From: an uncultured Gammaproteobacteria bacterium
GTDB lineage: Bacteria; Patescibacteriota; Patescibacteriia; UBA9934
Assembly (NCBI GenBank): GCA_964357305.1
Contig: CAYHKX010000001.1
Span: 1 to 26,779 of the forward strand
Direction of reading: 5' to 3'
Length of the DNA stretch: 26,779 nt
This document shows, one piece after another, positions 23,706 to 26,779 of the stretch. A model generated the notes under the pieces. The model was not told the origin of the DNA and searched no databases. It was given only the letters and a program-made list of their open reading frames with translations. Every line of letters begins with the position of its first letter. The first letter of the stretch is position 1. The position numbers and the translations under genes are program-made.

Positions 23706-25406
23706 ATGGAAACCCCTTGGATTATTGCCCCGCGAAGTCACGATGACCTCGTGACGCAACTTTTGGTGAATCGCGGCGTTCCTCCAGAAGAGCGGGATGC
23801 GTTTCTATCGCCGAATTGGGAAGTGGGAACATATTCACCATTTGCGTTCACGCGAATGCAAGAAGCGGTCGACGCGATGTTTGGCGCGCTTGAACGCGCC
23901 GAATCGATTGTGATTCATGGCGACTACGATGCAGATGGCGTGTCCGGATCTTCACTCTTGTTTGGAGTTTTGACCGATATTGCCGAGCGCCTGAATTTTT
24001 CGCTCGACCTTGGGGTCTTTCTTCCAGATAGGGAGAAAGACGGATACGGTGTGGCAATGCATACGATTGAACGTTGTATTGCGGAAGGAAAAAAGACGAT
24101 CGTCACGGTGGATTGTGGCATTGCAAACGGTCTCGAATTGAATCGTGCTCATGACGCCGGGATTACAACGATTGTGTGCGATCACCACCAGCTTGGCACG
24201 CACTTTCCCGATCATGCGATTATTCTCCATCCACTTACTCCAGGGGAGACATATCCCAATAAAACGCTCTGCGGAACTGGTGTCGCATTCAAATTCGCAT
24301 CGGGACTCATTGCTGAAGCGCGAAAACGCGGTGCAGATTTTCCTGAAGGGTATGAAAAATGGATGCTCGATCTTGTTGCGATCGCGACGGTGACCGATGT
24401 GATGCCGCTTACGGGAGAGAATCGTGTTCTCGAATATTTCGGATTAAAAGTCTTGAACAAGACACGTCGTCCAGGAATTCGCGCAATTCTTGCGGCGTCT
24501 GGTACTGAGCTTGGTGGGATCGACACGCAGACAATTGGATTTCGCATCGGCCCTCGATTGAATGCCGCTGGAAGACTTTCGAGTGCGAAGATTGCGTTCG
24601 ACGCGATTGTAGCGAAAACACCTGAGGAAGCGAGCGTCGCTGCGGCCTCGCTCGAGCAATTGAATCGCGACCGTCAAAATATTTTCAAATCGTCTTACAA
24701 ACAAGCAGAAAGTATCGCCAGGGACATGCTTGCTGAACATCAGGTCCTCGTTATCGCGAGTGAAGAATGGCTTCCGGGAATTGTCGGGCTTATTGCGGGG
24801 AAACTCGTGAACGATTTTGGCCGGCCAGCATTCGCGTTTACGAGGATTGAGGGAAAATATGTGGGTAGTGGGCGAACCGCTGGTGGACTCCATCTTGTTG
24901 ACGCAATGCATGCGTGCGGTGACATCTTTTTGCGCAAAGGTGGTCACCCACAGGCATGTGGACTTTCCATGGCATCAACGATTGAAATTGATCTGTTTAG
25001 AACGCGCGTGAACGATTTTGCGCGTGAGATATTTGGTAGCGCTGGGGTTTCACCGTCGCTCGCTATTGATGCTGTCGTAGCACCATCGACCATCACTCTT
25101 GATCTTCTTGCTGTGCTTGAAGCATGCGCGCCGTTTGGAGAGGGAAACCGTCCGCCAATATTTGCCACCATGGGTGCAAACGTGATGGCGGCGGAAACCA
25201 TGGGTGCAACGGGCGGACACCTTCGTCTCACCGTTCTTGATGACACTGGAGCCGTGGGTAAATTTGTTGGGTTTGGTATTGGCGATAAGGCGCGTGAACT
25301 GACCATGGGGACTGTTGTGGACATTGCGTACGAACCTGGGGTGAACGTGTGGAATGGGAAAAAGAACGTACAGTGTAGAATAGTGGAGGTAAAGAAGAGT
25401 ACGTAG
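23706..25406 (+). CDS. recJ: Single-stranded-DNA-specific exonuclease RecJ
   Basis: HGDYDADG, PDREKDGYG, VTVDCG, CDHH, ATVTDVMPL, PRLNAAGRL, GSGRT, PFGEGN. Start moved to 23706. Confidence 0.96.
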   Translation: METPWIIAPRSHDDLVTQLLVNRGVPPEERDAFLSPNWEVGTYSPFAFTRMQEAVDAMFGALERAESIVIHGDYDADGVSGSSLLFGVLTDIAERLNFSLDLGVFLPDREKDGYGVAMHTIERCIAEGKKTIVTVDCGIANGLELNRAHDAGITTIVCDHHQLGTHFPDHAIILHPLTPGETYPNKTLCGTGVAFKFASGLIAEARKRGADFPEGYEKWMLDLVAIATVTDVMPLTGENRVLEYFGLKVLNKTRRPGIRAILAASGTELGGIDTQTIGFRIGPRLNAAGRLSSAKIAFDAIVAKTPEEASVAAASLEQLNRDRQNIFKSSYKQAESIARDMLAEHQVLVIASEEWLPGIVGLIAGKLVNDFGRPAFAFTRIEGKYVGSGRTAGGLHLVDAMHACGDIFLRKGGHPQACGLSMASTIEIDLFRTRVNDFAREIFGSAGVSPSLAIDAVVAPSTITLDLLAVLEACAPFGEGNRPPIFATMGANVMAAETMGATGGHLRLTVLDDTGAVGKFVGFGIGDKARELTMGTVVDIAYEPGVNVWNGKKNVQCRIVEVKKST

Positions 25407-25413
25407 TGCGTAA
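25398..25413. repeat. 7-bp repeat dimer spanning the recJ stop codon
   Basis: AGTACGT AGTGCGT AA; the reverse complement is TTACGCA CTACGTA CT. The recJ TAG at 25404-25406 lies inside it. Confidence 0.55.
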
Positions 25414-25419
25414 TGAAAT

Positions 25420-25847
25420 ATGATGAAAACAGTTCGCATGTATGCTGACGGGGGATCGAGGGGGAATCCGGGGCCCGCTGCGGGTGCTGCGGTACTTTTT
25501 TGCTGAATGATGATGGCACCGAGGGGAAGCGTGTTAGTGATGCGGCAAAGTACATTGGCATTGATACGAATAATCAAGCGGAATACACCGGGATCATTAT
25601 TGGACTGCAAAAGGCGCTGGAGCTTGGGTATGATGTGGTCGACGTACGGTTAGACTCTGAACTTGCCGTGAAGCAACTCAACGGGCAGTACAAAGTGAAG
25701 CATCCAGAAATCGCCAAGCGATTCCTTGAGGTACACAATCTTCGCTCACAATTCCGGTCCGTGAAATTTTCTCACGTCTTCCGCGAGCAGAATGTCGCCG
25801 CCGACGCACTCGTGAACGAGACGCTTGATGCTAAAGCTAAGCTTTAA
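25420..25847 (+). pseudogene. rnhA: Ribonuclease HI, frameshifted at a T6 run (pseudogene, assembly error or recoding)
   Basis: The frame from 25420 gives MMKTVRMYADGGSRGNPGPAAGAAVLFC* (TGA 25504-25506). The -1 frame continues LLNDDG...TNNQAEY...DSELAVKQLNGQYKVK...HVFREQNVAADALVN. Confidence 0.8.
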
Positions 25848-25851
25848 CATG
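25829..25851 (+). repeat. 23-bp direct repeat, left copy (TGCTAAAGCTAAGCTTTAACATG)
   Basis: Identical to 26470-26492. Contains the palindrome AAGCT-A-AGCTT and the rnhA stop codon. Confidence 0.95.
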
Positions 25852-25852
25852 T

Positions 25853-26488
25853 ATGAGGACGACGCCGATGGTGAATGAATCGTACTATCACGTGTATAAC
25901 CGAGGCGTCGACCGACGGGATATTTTCTTGTCTGATGAAGATCGGCGTCGATACCTGAGAAGTTGCATTCTGTTTAATAATCAGATTGTTATACCCAGGA
26001 AGCCTGAGCTACTCATCGATGGAAGTCATCCGCATCAGGCATTGGATCCCTTGGTCTCTATCGCTTGTTATGTCTTGATGAATAATCACGTTCATGTCGT
26101 ATTGAAACAGATCGCTGATAATGGCGTAGCGAAGTTTATGCAGCGTCTTGGTACTGGATACACAAAGTATTTTAATCGCAAGCATGAAAGAACCGGATCG
26201 CTGTTCGAATCGACATATAAGTCTGTTCTCGTTGAGAGCGAGGAACAGTTTCTCCATTTGACGAGATATGTTCATCTCAATCCGATAGATCTTTTCCAAG
26301 AAGATGAAGATGATGGAGTAAGGGCACTCCAGGAATATCGATGGTCTAGTTTTCGACATTATATTGGGAAAACGAAGGATCCAATCGTCGATGATCTCGA
26401 GTTGAAGACGTTGTTTCGTCCCGATGGTTATCGAGATTTTGTTCTTGACTGGATCCCGAATCGGGGTTTTGCTAAAGCTAAGCTTTAA
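25853..26488 (+). CDS. REP-associated tyrosine (Y1/HUH, IS200-like) transposase
   Basis: YYHVYNRG, YVLMNNHVH (HUH), TGYTKYFN, GSLFESTYKS, RYVHLNP and YRWSS. Confidence 0.9.
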   Translation: MRTTPMVNESYYHVYNRGVDRRDIFLSDEDRRRYLRSCILFNNQIVIPRKPELLIDGSHPHQALDPLVSIACYVLMNNHVHVVLKQIADNGVAKFMQRLGTGYTKYFNRKHERTGSLFESTYKSVLVESEEQFLHLTRYVHLNPIDLFQEDEDDGVRALQEYRWSSFRHYIGKTKDPIVDDLELKTLFRPDGYRDFVLDWIPNRGFAKAKL

Positions 26489-26492
26489 CATG
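26470..26492 (+). repeat. 23-bp direct repeat, right copy
   Basis: Identical to 25829-25851; contains the RAYT stop codon. Confidence 0.95.
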
Positions 26493-26573
26493 ATTTTCAC
26501 ACGGCGATTTTAAAAAAATCCCTAAATCCCTAATATCAATCGATCAATTTTGCGAGAAATCACTTTTGGTAAT

Positions 26574-26589
26574 TGTTAAAGCTTAGCTT
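26574..26589 (-). repeat. Third, inverted 16-bp copy of the repeat core
   Basis: TGTTAAAGCTTAGCTT is the reverse complement of AAGCTAAGCTTTAACA. Confidence 0.9.
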
Positions 26590-26600
26590 CGACATTTGCG

Positions 26601-26609
26601 TGATATACT
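26601..26609 (+). promoter_or_regulatory. Putative extended -10 promoter (TGaTATACT) for pilM
   Basis: TG-n-TATACT ending 8 nt before ATG 26618. Confidence 0.6.
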
Positions 26610-26617
26610 TTCACTAT

Positions 26618-26779
26618 ATGTTTGGAGCAAAAAAAGAGGAGGTTTCTCATGGGCTGCTTGGTGTCGATATCGGCACATCGGGATTAAAAGTGGTGGAGCT
26701 CACGTCGGAAGGTGGAAAAATTCGATTGGTGACGTACGGGTACGCAGATATCGCGCCAGATAAAGATGCATCCGTGCTT
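26618..26779 (+). CDS. pilM: Type IV pilus assembly protein PilM (FtsA/actin-like), truncated at the window edge
   Basis: Manual translation MFGAKKEEVSHGLLGVDIGTSGLKVVELTSEGGKIRLVTYGYADIAP...; LGVDIGTSxLKVVEL is the PilM phosphate-1 motif. Confidence 0.85.
   Translation, partial: MFGAKKEEVSHGLLGVDIGTSGLKVVELTSEGGKIRLVTYGYADIAPDKDASVL

What the first reader, a model, noticed from the sequence alone, without database searches (positions are those of the whole stretch)
25829..26492. RAYT gene cassette bounded by perfect 23-bp direct repeats that write the C-termini of two proteins
TGCTAAAGCTAAGCTTTAACATG occurs at 25829 and 26470. The left copy encodes the end of RNase HI and the right copy the end of the RAYT, so both proteins end AKAKL-stop. 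The RAYT ATG lies 1 nt after the left copy, and TAAGCT within the repeat sits 9 nt before that ATG, matching the local -10 spacing. Recombination between the copies would delete 641 bp and leave rnhA's 3' end unchanged. The core AAGCT-A-AGCTT is a 5-bp-arm palindrome, unlike classical GTAG/CGTC REP hairpins. Inference: a scarless, self-promoting cassette that integrates at gene ends via its own short palindromic REP-like site, possibly through a circular intermediate. This may be an undescribed RAYT/REP subtype.
Basis: partly seen in the sequence, partly recalled or inferred. Interest (0 to 1): 0.75.

Follow-up and report, generated by a model that had tools for sequence, protein, structure and literature searches.

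The report
RAYT gene flanked by own hairpins
The two identical 23-base repeats are copies of a short DNA hairpin scattered about 18 times through this tiny groundwater bacterium's genome. They bracket the single-strand-DNA-cutting enzyme gene (RAYT type) that such hairpins travel with, so this is a variant of a known system and not a new self-inserting gene cassette.

Summary
TGCTAAAGCTAAGCTTTAACATG occurs exactly at 25829 and 26470. Both RNase HI and the next ORF end AKAKL-stop inside it, and the ORF's ATG is at 25853.

The repeat is really a 21-nt near-perfect palindrome (10-nt arms, 1-nt centre). A third, inverted copy lies at 26574-26594. Its 11-nt core occurs 18 times in the 710-kb genome, against about 0.65 expected.

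The ORF is an intact Y1 HUH nuclease:
- It has the motifs NHVH, RYVHLNP and WSS.
- Its best fold match is E. coli TnpA-REP (PDB 4ER8).
- Its signature fits TnpA-Y1 subclass 2.1, which corresponds to TIRYT and Bertels group 1.

Five of 14 species in the genus carry a monophyletic RAYT clade at this same rnhA-pilM site, each with three palindromes. Eight species have empty sites with no palindrome at all. This does not fit integration at, or scarless excision between, the direct repeats. The best reading is a resident REPtron/TIRtron-like unit, inherited vertically with losses and one allele swap (in G012, whose hairpin core has changed).

Hairpins are enriched at gene ends and often supply the stop codon, which was already reported for REPs.

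The same architecture recurs across Patescibacteria. This scan has noted it many times on other DNA, including the same module in a sister species.

Verdict: a real feature and a new variant of a known kind. The cassette mechanism is not supported.

The parts
25421..25847 (+). rnhA (RNase HI, RVT_3/RNase H fold). Its last five codons and TAA stop are encoded by palindrome copy 1. In the window it is split by a 1-nt frameshift in the T-run at 25495-25500.
   Evidence: Pfam PF13456 at 6e-22, NCBIfam RNase HI models and ORF 25500-25847. Three of 4 metagenome runs have one more T after 25495, which restores the frame. Tails after ...LDA vary in relatives.
25829..25849 (+). REP-like palindrome copy 1 (TGCTAAAGCT-A-AGCTTTAACA). 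It overlaps the rnhA stop and ends 3 nt before the RAYT ATG.
   Evidence: The DNA hairpin is -4.1 kcal/mol on the + strand and -5.2 kcal/mol (z -3.4) on the - strand. It sits at the same place in G005, G009 and G012.
25853..26488 (+). RAYT/TIRYT-type Y1 HUH nuclease gene, 211 aa. Motifs: HUH = N78-H79-V80-H81, catalytic Tyr motif R138-Y139-V-H-L-N-P, and W164-S-S.
   Evidence: Pfam Y1_Tnp 28 bits. NCBIfam REP_Tyr_transpos 40.5 bits, below the cutoff of 80. Invariant residues in 12 and 52 homologues. AlphaFold model pLDDT 91. Best PDB fold hit 4er8_A at E 1e-6.
26470..26490 (+). REP-like palindrome copy 2, identical to copy 1. It encodes the last five codons and stop of the RAYT.
   Evidence: Orthologues keep a palindrome here but read it in another frame: MAKLSFNI-stop in G005 and G009, read-through in G012.
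26491..26573 (.). 83-nt AT-rich spacer between copies 2 and 3. Together the three parts form a REPIN-like doublet.
   Evidence: Copies 2 and 3 can pair across it (-18.4/-22.0 kcal/mol, z -2.7/-4.1). In relatives the equivalent doublet has 63-64-nt spacing and a spacer motif shared with dispersed doublets.
26574..26594 (-). REP-like palindrome copy 3 (TGTTAAAGCT-T-AGCTTCGACA on the + strand). It is inverted relative to copies 1 and 2 and ends 9 nt before the pilM -10-like box.
   Evidence: 16-nt perfect inverted repeat with both other copies. The equivalent copy in G005 and G009 has the opposite orientation.
26604..26779 (+). pilM: a -10-like TATACT (26604-26609) and the ATG at 26618. The gene runs off the contig end. 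It marks the right-hand border of the inserted unit.
   Evidence: ORF frame. GTGCTATACTTT plus the ATG are conserved in filled and empty sites of the genus.

Best explanation
The region is a REPtron/TIRtron-like unit. A resident, single-copy gene for a RAYT-type Y1 HUH single-strand-DNA nuclease lies between three copies of its cognate 21-nt hairpin-forming palindrome, one upstream and a doublet downstream. The same palindrome is dispersed about 18 times in the genome as single copies and pairs.

Shown:
- The enzyme family, with intact catalytic motifs.
- The three-palindrome layout, conserved at the same rnhA-pilM site in five species.
- Palindrome sequence and RAYT allele change together between genomes.
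- Palindrome copy number largely follows RAYT presence across the genus; G008 keeps 11 copies although its rnhA-pilM site is empty.
- The same layout recurs in many Patescibacteria relatives.

Inferred by analogy with E. coli TnpA-REP and IS200/IS605 TnpA: the enzyme binds the folded hairpin on single-stranded DNA, probably the strand where the imperfect positions form G.T pairs. It cuts and rejoins next to the hairpin and so copies hairpins, or hairpin doublets, to new sites in trans, while the gene itself stays put.

In a genome with intergenic spacers of 10-60 nt, new copies survive mainly at gene ends. The palindrome carries TAA or TAG in two of three frames on each strand, so an ORF that runs into it usually stops there. 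That explains why rnhA and the RAYT both end AKAKL-stop. The 23-nt 'direct repeat' is simply two copies of the commonest hairpin subtype.

The unit is old in the genus. It was inherited vertically, lost repeatedly (leaving decaying orphan hairpins, as in G008) and replaced once by a divergent allele with a changed hairpin core (G012).
For: Enzyme:
- Pfam Y1_Tnp.
- HUH, RY-x-H-x-NP and WSS are invariant in 12 and 52 homologues.
- This signature matches subclass 2.1 in the table of PMC6006769.
- The model has pLDDT 91. The top PDB fold hit is E. coli TnpA-REP bound to a REP hairpin (4er8_A, E 1e-6, TM 0.68), ahead of the ISDra2 and IS608 TnpA structures.

Repeat family:
- 18 cores against 0.65 expected, with 1 hit for the reversed-pattern control.
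- Arms co-vary within copies (TA...TA versus CG...CG).

Cognate pairing:
- The second RAYT, on contig C27 (42% identical), is flanked by a different palindrome, GAAACCSGGTTTC.
- G012 has GGTCAAAGTC-S-GACTTTGACC at all three flanking sites plus 3 dispersed copies, and other genomes have 0-1.

Conservation:
- The order recJ-rnhA-[pal]-RAYT-[pal]-[pal]-pilM is found in G000, G005, G009, G010 and G012.
- These RAYTs form one clade with support 0.99.

Copy number against RAYT presence (AAGCTNAGCTT counts):
- 18, 16, 16, 9 and 6 in genomes with the RAYT at this site.
- 17 in G013, which has another RAYT flanked by the same core.
- 11 in G008 (orphans, including a pair inside queA that is orthologous with G000's).
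- 0-2 in the remaining seven genomes.

Family-wide:
- 34 of 80 relatives' loci have the same palindrome on both sides of the gene.
- Perfect palindromes with stems of 9 or more occur at 4.62/kb in RAYT flanks against 0.35/kb elsewhere, and 58 of 90 have a 1-nt centre.

Gene ends:
- 7 of 14 copies outside core coding sequence lie at a stop codon, against 11% expected (P about 4e-4; details).
Against: - No biochemical or transcript data exist, so the enzyme-hairpin interaction and any current activity are inferred.
- The protein scores below NCBIfam's RAYT cutoff (40.5 against 80). Sequence profiles barely reach 4ER8 (E 0.72).
- Quentin et al. found no REPs next to subclass 2.1 genes.
- The copy number (18) is far below classical REP families.
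- Presence at the rnhA-pilM site is patchy on a RecJ+RnhA tree. That tree has only 594 columns, taken from the locus itself. About six losses are needed, and none left a palindrome.
- The empty sites of G002 and G011 share a homologous spacer that the filled sites lack. This fits 'empty is ancestral' at least as well as loss does.
- G012's RAYT is 64% identical to G005's, although their RecJ proteins are 92% identical. Inheritance is therefore not purely vertical.
- In some relatives the palindrome is found only beside the gene (G026: 3 of 3 copies). That looks more like element ends than a dispersed family.
Confidence: 0.78

Rival explanations
1. A mobile, scarless gene cassette integrates at gene ends through its own palindromic site and excises by recombination between the two 23-nt direct repeats, possibly through a circle, carrying its own promoter.
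For: The repeats are direct, identical and 641 nt apart. Recombination between them would leave rnhA intact. Presence of the unit at the rnhA-pilM site is patchy among close relatives. Hairpins are enriched at gene ends.
Against: All eight empty sites lack the motif entirely. Filled and empty sites differ by about 790 nt replacing about 26 nt, not by a clean insertion between repeats. The unit has three palindromes. RAYTs at this site form a locus-specific clade about as diverged as RecJ. Other family members do not sit next to rnhA or pilM. No joint was seen in the contigs of 4 runs. The palindrome-to-ATG distance is not conserved, and no sigma-70-like promoter was found.
Confidence: 0.06
2. 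An autonomous IS200/IS605-like insertion sequence. The flanking palindromes are its left-end and right-end hairpins. The encoded enzyme moves the whole unit by single-strand peel-and-paste, and the dispersed palindromes are its miniature derivatives.
For: It has the Y1 HUH fold and a hairpin near each end in the same orientation. In several relatives the palindrome occurs only, or almost only, beside the gene. The same hairpin core flanks a different RAYT at another locus in G013. Some relatives carry 5-10 family members. Bertels et al. found group 1 RAYTs the most IS-like.
Against: The Tyr motif is Y-x3-NP (class 2), not the Y-x3-Q of IS200 transposases. There are no near-identical gene copies: the two paralogues in this genome are 42% identical and have different hairpins. 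The gene has stayed at one site across species that differ by 25-30% in RecJ. There is no tnpB.
Confidence: 0.12
3. The palindromes are host regulatory sites (an operator for a dimeric DNA-binding protein, a terminator, or an mRNA-end stabiliser) that happen to lie around this gene, unrelated to the HUH enzyme.
For: They are symmetric sites at gene ends and before pilM. REPs elsewhere have host roles (PMC3733652).
Against: Each RAYT paralogue or allele has its own palindrome on both sides. Enrichment is 13-fold in RAYT flanks across 80 loci. The copies are lineage-specific insertions absent at orthologous sites of relatives. Some are read in frame inside genes. The hairpin is weak (-4 to -5 kcal/mol) and has no T-run.
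Confidence: 0.03

Closest known systems
TIRtron/TIRYT (Di Nocera et al. 2013, PMC3733652), which corresponds to TnpA-Y1 subclass 2.1 (Quentin et al. 2018, PMC6006769) and Bertels group 1 RAYTs (PMC5581495)
   Same: It shares the protein signature NHVH, Y[IV]HLNP and an SS-containing tail, and a length of about 200-240 aa. It has a low copy number with divergent paralogues. The gene is bracketed by matching repeats that can be self-complementary, can overlap the 3' end of the gene, and sometimes form moderately abundant families. Flanking 16-mers occur on the order of 12 times per replicon.
   Different: The flanking repeats here are short perfect palindromes with a single-base centre, not long TIRs with a GGGGWSAS motif. 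The layout is a constant three-copy one (1+2). Copies are dispersed as singles and doublets, at stop codons and in frame inside genes. The host is a Patescibacteria-like small genome, a group missing from those surveys. Quentin et al. reported no REP-like sequences for subclass 2.1. A distal HTH-like tail was not detected here.
REPtron: E. coli TnpA-REP (RAYT, YafM; PDB 4ER8) with REP/BIME, and the REPIN-RAYT systems of Pseudomonas (PMC2817692, PMC3333891, PMC3479197, PMC3116915, PMC8266576)
   Same: It is the best structural match. It shares the HUH and Y-x3-NP catalytic core, a single resident gene flanked by its cognate hairpins, hairpins dispersed in the genome, doublets, co-evolution of enzyme and hairpin, vertical inheritance with loss, and REPs that sit after genes and supply stop codons.
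   Different: There is no GT[AG]G guide tetranucleotide at the foot of the hairpin. The palindrome is almost perfect with a 1-nt centre. There are tens of copies, not hundreds. The protein belongs to a different subclass, with about 10% identity to 4ER8 and a score below the NCBIfam cutoff. The flanking copies are direct as well as inverted.
IS200/IS605 family insertion sequences (IS608, ISDra2)
   Same: The Y1 HUH fold, subterminal hairpins at both ends recognised on single-stranded DNA, and insertion without target duplication.
   Different: The Tyr motif is Y-x3-Q and the transposases are about 130-150 aa. These elements occur as multiple near-identical copies and often carry tnpB. Here the gene does not multiply.

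Membership tests
RAYT / TnpA-REP (class 2 TnpA-Y1) | Y1 HUH nuclease fold | tested here: met
   Pfam PF01797 at 28.2 bits against a cutoff of 23. Model pLDDT 91. Foldseek top hit 4er8_A at E 1e-6, followed by IS200/IS605 TnpA structures.
RAYT / TnpA-REP (class 2 TnpA-Y1) | HUH motif plus catalytic Tyr in a Y-x3-NP motif | tested here: met
   N78, H79, H81, Y139 and N143 are invariant in 52 homologues. The class 2 signature is as given in PMC6006769.
RAYT / TnpA-REP (class 2 TnpA-Y1) | Gene flanked by a short palindrome that is also dispersed in the same genome, specific to each paralogue | tested here: met
   Three flanking copies. 18 cores in the genome against 0.65 expected. The paralogue on C27 has another palindrome. 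G012 has its own variant.
RAYT / TnpA-REP (class 2 TnpA-Y1) | Low copy number, no near-identical duplicates | tested here: met
   Two genes in the genome, 42% identical.
RAYT / TnpA-REP (class 2 TnpA-Y1) | Score above NCBIfam NF047646 (REP_Tyr_transpos, equivalog) cutoff | tested here: not met
   40.5 bits against a cutoff of 80.
RAYT / TnpA-REP (class 2 TnpA-Y1) | Cleavage and strand transfer on the cognate single-stranded hairpin | not testable with these tools
   Needs purified protein and oligonucleotides.
Classical REP (GTAG- or CGTC-tagged) | Conserved GT[AG]G or CGTC tetranucleotide at one foot of the hairpin | tested here: not met
   The copies begin TG-Y-Y-R and end Y-R-R-CA. None of the flanks of the 18 copies carries a GTAG or CGTC tag.
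Classical REP (GTAG- or CGTC-tagged) | High copy number (typically over 100) and extragenic location | tested here: not met
   18 copies. Seven contain a stop codon of a long ORF and at least two lie in frame inside genes.
TnpA-Y1 subclass 2.1 / TIRYT | Motifs NHVH or NH[YF]H, Y[IV]HLNP, and a proximal tail with SS | tested here: met
   NHVH, RYVHLNP and WSS compared with Table 1 of PMC6006769.
TnpA-Y1 subclass 2.1 / TIRYT | Distal C-terminal HTH-like domain, median length 238 aa | tested here: inconclusive
   211 aa. Pfam finds only Y1_Tnp. The model ends in three short helices at 182-210.
TnpA-Y1 subclass 2.1 / TIRYT | Long terminal inverted repeats, mostly with GGGGWSAS | tested here: not met
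   The flanking repeats are 21-nt palindromes with an AAGCT-W-AGCTT core.
REPIN | Two REPs separated by a conserved spacer and dispersed as one unit | tested here: inconclusive
   In this genome three pairs are 96-110 nt apart without clearly homologous spacers. The C44 pair is absent as a whole from relatives. In G009, G012, G002, G005 and G008, pairs share a spacer motif; in the first four they are spaced 63-64 nt, as in the pair next to the RAYT.
IS200/IS605 insertion sequence | Y-x3-Q transposase of about 150 aa in several near-identical copies | tested here: not met
   Y-x3-NP, 211 aa, and no duplicates.
   Eight empty rnhA-pilM sites lack the motif. No joints were seen in the contigs of 4 runs. 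Contigs cannot exclude rare forms.

The most novel reading that the evidence does not exclude
The hairpin element may be targeted to gene 3' ends in a fixed register, so that it supplies the stop codon itself: TAG at the hairpin centre, or TAA in the 3' arm. That would be a stop-codon-directed mode of target choice for an HUH-mobilised element, driven in trans by a resident subclass-2.1 nuclease that was thought to have no REPs. The same genus would then also offer a natural specificity switch. G005 and G012 have 92% identical RecJ but only 64% identical RAYT, and the hairpin core has changed at two positions per arm in all copies. This would make enzyme-hairpin co-evolution directly testable.
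Probability: 0.15. Interest if true: 0.6.

Novelty: new variant of a known kind. Interest (0 to 1): 0.36.

Why it matters
This locus extends REP/RAYT-type systems to ultra-small Patescibacteria-like genomes and to the largest TnpA-Y1 subclass (2.1, Bertels group 1). The reference survey found no associated repeats for that subclass.

It also shows how such hairpins survive in a genome with almost no intergenic space. They sit on stop codons and are sometimes read in frame.

The genus gives a compact natural series: RAYT present, lost with orphan hairpins, and swapped for an allele with a new hairpin core. That series could be used to test how these enzymes recognise GTAG-less perfect palindromes, and whether hairpin populations decay after the enzyme is lost.

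It does not reveal a new kind of mobile gene cassette.

Tried and rejected
- **Sequence searches against PDB.** The single protein gave only noise. Profiles reached ISDra2 TnpA weakly (E 0.007) and 4ER8 only at E 0.72. Fold comparison was needed.
- **Exact ends of the inserted unit.** I tried to define them from filled versus empty sites (G009 against G002, G000 against G008). The flanks are too diverged. About 790 nt replaces about 26 nt, and no clean junction or target motif emerged. The same held for the dispersed copies on C44 and C68.
- **Doublets in this genome.** I tested whether they share a spacer. Alignments were not convincing, unlike those in sister species.
- **Targeting of rnhA or pilM.** None of the 87 loci from outside the four same-site genus orthologues has either gene nearby.
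- **Origin of the G012 allele.** I tested whether G012's RAYT, with its changed hairpin, came from a distant AAGTC-type RAYT. It did not: it falls inside the locus-specific clade, weakly next to G010, whose outer hairpin arms it shares.
- **Read evidence.** Only Logan contigs were available. They showed no joints, and rare excision products cannot be excluded.
- **Promoter scan.** No sigma-70-type match was found in 25300-26779. This is uninformative for organisms with near-leaderless promoters.
- **Register of stop codons in the hairpin.** Six of 7 host ORFs use the frame xAA-GCT-WAG. This is suggestive but not significant once selection against the stop-less frame is allowed for (P about 0.06). 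I do not claim it.
- **Literature.** Searches for RAYT or REP together with Patescibacteria or CPR found nothing. This shows only that the searchable library holds nothing.
Full report
**1. Observation**

The exact 23-mer TGCTAAAGCTAAGCTTTAACATG is present at 25829-25851 and 26470-26492. There is no other match at up to 3 mismatches and none in 100 shuffles. The spacing is 641 nt.

ORF listing shows the RNase HI frame 25500-25847 ending LDAKAKL-stop and ORF 25853-26488 ending GFAKAKL-stop. In both, GCT AAA GCT AAG CTT TAA lies inside the repeat. The ATG at 25853 is 1 nt after the left copy and is the conserved start of the protein family.

- It is a 21-nt palindrome with 10-nt arms and a single central base. 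One position is C.A on the + strand and G.T on the - strand. The hairpin is -4.1 kcal/mol on the + strand and -5.2 kcal/mol (z -3.4) on the - strand.
- A third copy in inverted orientation lies at 26574-26594, just upstream of the pilM promoter-like box.
- The core AAGCTNAGCTT occurs 18 times in the 709,656-bp, 143-contig genome, against 0.65 expected from base composition and 1 for the reversed-pattern control. Arms co-vary within copies (TA...TA versus CG...CG). Three copies are identical over all 21 nt, so the '23-bp direct repeat' is two members of the commonest subtype plus 2 nt.

**2. The gene**

The 211-aa product matches Pfam Y1_Tnp (28 bits). It matches NCBIfam's REP-associated tyrosine transposase model only below cutoff (40.5 against 80).

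Alignments with 11 and then 51 homologues show several invariant residues: N78-H79-x-H81 (HUH), Y139 and N143 (within R-Y-x-H-x-N-P), and S165-S166; W164 is nearly invariant. In the classification of Quentin et al. 2018 (PMC6006769) this is the signature of class 2, subclass 2.1. That subclass has NHVH or NH[YF]H, Y[IV]HLNP, an SS tail and a median length of 238 aa. It equals Bertels group 1 and probably corresponds to the TIRYTs of Di Nocera et al.

An AlphaFold model (pLDDT 91) is most similar to E. coli TnpA-REP bound to its REP hairpin (4er8_A, E 1e-6, TM 0.68). The ISDra2 and IS608 transposases come next. Sequence-only PDB searches were weak.

A second paralogue on contig C27 is 42% identical. 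It is flanked by a different palindrome, GAAACCSGGTTTC, with two copies upstream, one downstream and three elsewhere in the genome.

**3. The locus in relatives**

Among 14 species of the genus, five have an orthologous gene at the same place: G000, G005, G009, G010 and G012. The order is recJ-rnhA-RAYT-pilM and each has three palindromes.

- In G005, G009 and G012 the upstream palindrome again supplies the last codons and the stop of rnhA.
- The palindrome at the RAYT 3' end is kept but read in another frame: MAKLSFNI-stop in G005 and G009, read-through in G012, and a degenerate but still compensated copy in G010.
- What is conserved is therefore the DNA element, not the peptide.
- G012 has a changed core (GGTCAAAGTC-S-GACTTTGACC) at all three sites plus three dispersed copies. 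The other genomes have 0-1. G012 also still carries nine old-type cores.

Eight species have empty sites, with 10-60 nt between rnhA and pilM. None of them has any copy of the motif. G007 has a different gene after rnhA.

A filled site differs from the closest empty one by about 790 nt replacing about 26 nt. The empty sites of G002 and G011 share a homologous spacer.

**4. History**

- The five RAYTs at this site form one clade (support 0.99), apart from about 50 other family members.
- Their divergence roughly tracks RecJ: for example G000-G005 is 67% against 71%, and G005-G009 is 90% against 93%.
- G012 is the exception. It is 64% identical to G005 in RAYT although RecJ is 92% identical. G012 groups weakly with G010, and it shares G010's outer hairpin arms.
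- On a RecJ+RnhA tree (594 columns, taken from the locus itself, so limited) the carriers are scattered.
- G008 is the closest relative of this genome. It lacks the gene but keeps 11 hairpins, including a pair inside queA that is orthologous with this genome's pair.
- Hairpin counts are 18, 16, 16, 9 and 6 in carriers. G013 has 17 and carries another intact RAYT flanked by the same core at a different locus, with its stop codon at the palindrome centre. The other seven genomes have 0-2.

The most economical reading is an old resident gene that was lost several times, with decay of orphan hairpins, plus one replacement of the allele within the genus. Repeated gain by homologous exchange of the whole region cannot be excluded.

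No other family member lies next to rnhA or pilM.

**5. Generality**

A scan of species-representative genomes found more than 557 relatives, most of those listed being Patescibacteria/CPR MAGs.

- In 34 of the 80 best loci, the same perfect palindrome lies upstream of the start codon and just after, or overlapping, the stop.
- Perfect palindromes with stems of 9 or more are 13-fold enriched in the flanks (4.62/kb against 0.35/kb).
- 58 of 90 have a single-base centre.
- 11 of 41 downstream copies begin before the end of the stop codon.
- Dispersal varies. In G026 all 3 copies are beside the gene, and in G004 3 of 5 are.

This scan has recorded the same architecture many times on other DNA. 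That includes what appears to be the same module between pilM and rnhA in a sister species (e1-1194885). I reached the subclass 2.1/TIRYT assignment before reading those notes, and they agree with it.

**6. Gene ends**

- In this genome seven palindromes contain the stop codon of a long ORF: rnhA, the RAYT, and ORFs of 473, 384, 439, 352 and 166 aa. Two more lie within 4 nt of a stop.
- Against a rough gene set, 7 of 14 copies outside core coding sequence are at a stop, where 11% is expected (P about 4e-4).
- The palindrome has TAA or TAG in two of three frames on either strand. An ORF that runs into it therefore usually ends there.
- The pair between two convergent genes on C44 and the copy on C68 are absent at the orthologous sites of five relatives.
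- At least two copies are read in frame inside genes. One is queA, where ...PPYVKAKLWHG... uses an arm variant without the stop. The other is an ORF on C139.

REPs lying downstream of genes, supplying stop codons, sitting inside ORFs and overlapping the 3' ends of tyrosine-transposase genes were all reported by Di Nocera et al. 2013 (PMC3733652).

**7.

A site-specific cassette, or a deletion between the direct repeats, predicts an empty site with one palindrome on the rnhA stop. None of the eight empty sites has one.

Contigs from four groundwater metagenome runs (two studies) show no joints across the region. Contigs cannot show rare forms.

The suggested -10 box inside the palindrome has no comparative support:
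- The gap to the ATG is 3 nt here, 24 nt or more in G005 and G009, and -4 to 105 nt in the family.
- The consensus promoter scan found nothing.
- With 5 nt between the rnhA stop and the RAYT ATG, co-transcription with rnhA is at least as likely. This last point is inference.

**8. Mechanism, with status of each step**

Shown:
- An intact HUH/Tyr enzyme of the RAYT kind.
- A cognate palindrome on both sides of it.
- The palindrome family dispersed in the genome.
- Enzyme and palindrome changing together.
- Palindrome number tracking enzyme presence.

Inferred from E. coli TnpA-REP and IS200/IS605 (PMC3479197, PMC3333891 and PMC8266576):
- The enzyme binds the folded hairpin on single-stranded DNA, cuts beside it and transfers strands.
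- This copies hairpins or doublets to new sites while the gene stays in place.
- How a GTAG-less perfect palindrome positions the cut is unknown.

**9. Verdict**

The feature is real. It is a REPtron/TIRtron-like unit of a subclass for which the reference survey found no REPs, in a bacterial group not covered by the published surveys I could search. That makes it a new variant of a known kind. The specific cassette, excision and promoter interpretation is not supported. Interest is moderate to low. The most useful aspect is the within-genus series of presence, loss and allele switch.

Noticed in passing
window 25421-25500: rnhA is frameshifted in the window. The N-terminus MKTVRMYADGGSRGNPGPAAGAAVLF is in another frame and ends at the T-run 25495-25500. 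Contigs from 3 of 4 metagenome runs have one more T after 25495, which restores an intact RNase HI. This is therefore a homopolymer assembly error or strain variant, not a pseudogene.
   Followed up: partly
G000 contig C24 (L138) 1684-1704 and 1817-1832: Two copies of the same palindrome lie in frame inside queA (354 aa), about 110 nt apart. One is read as PPYVKAKLWHG in the loop before the YQTVY motif, using an arm variant (TTTGG) that has no stop. The pair is orthologous with a pair in G008, which has lost the RAYT.
   Followed up: partly
G000 contig C139 (L139) 92-112: A palindrome copy is read in frame as ...NPMLKLSFGT... inside a 181-aa open frame that runs off the contig. A second copy lies 44 nt upstream of that ORF's start.
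   Followed up: no
G000 contig C27 (L114) 1103-1990: This is a second RAYT paralogue (186 aa, 42% identical) with its own palindrome, GAAACCSGGTTTC: two copies upstream and one downstream. It is followed by a C-terminal fragment of a further RAYT-like gene (about 1103-1177).
   Followed up: partly
G012:C1:155694-155788 (L133): A new-type hairpin doublet (AAGTC-S-GACTT, 63 nt apart) sits 10 nt from an old-type AAGCTAAGCTT copy. New hairpins appear to land next to old ones, as in REP clusters.
   Followed up: no
G009, G012, G002, G005, G008 doublets (L125-L137): Hairpin pairs share a spacer motif resembling GAATCTT-GAAATATAAGG, which contains a -10-like TATAAG. In G009, G012, G002 and G005 the pairs are spaced 63-64 nt; the two G008 pairs are wider apart. 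These look like REPIN-type units with both hairpins in the same nominal orientation.
   Followed up: partly
G007 (L017, L027): This genome holds two recJ-rnhA copies on separate contigs. Both are followed by a membrane-protein-like ORF instead of pilM. This may be strain heterogeneity in the bin or a rearrangement.
   Followed up: no
run X5, record 22: One 163-nt contig in a 2025 groundwater run carries the G005-type RAYT 3' end and hairpin doublet. A sister species with the same module therefore co-occurs in that sample.
   Followed up: no
window 25834-25844 and all other copies: Every copy of the core contains one HindIII site (AAGCTT) and two AluI sites (AGCT). Relatives with other cores lack them, so I saw no link to restriction-modification.
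   Followed up: no
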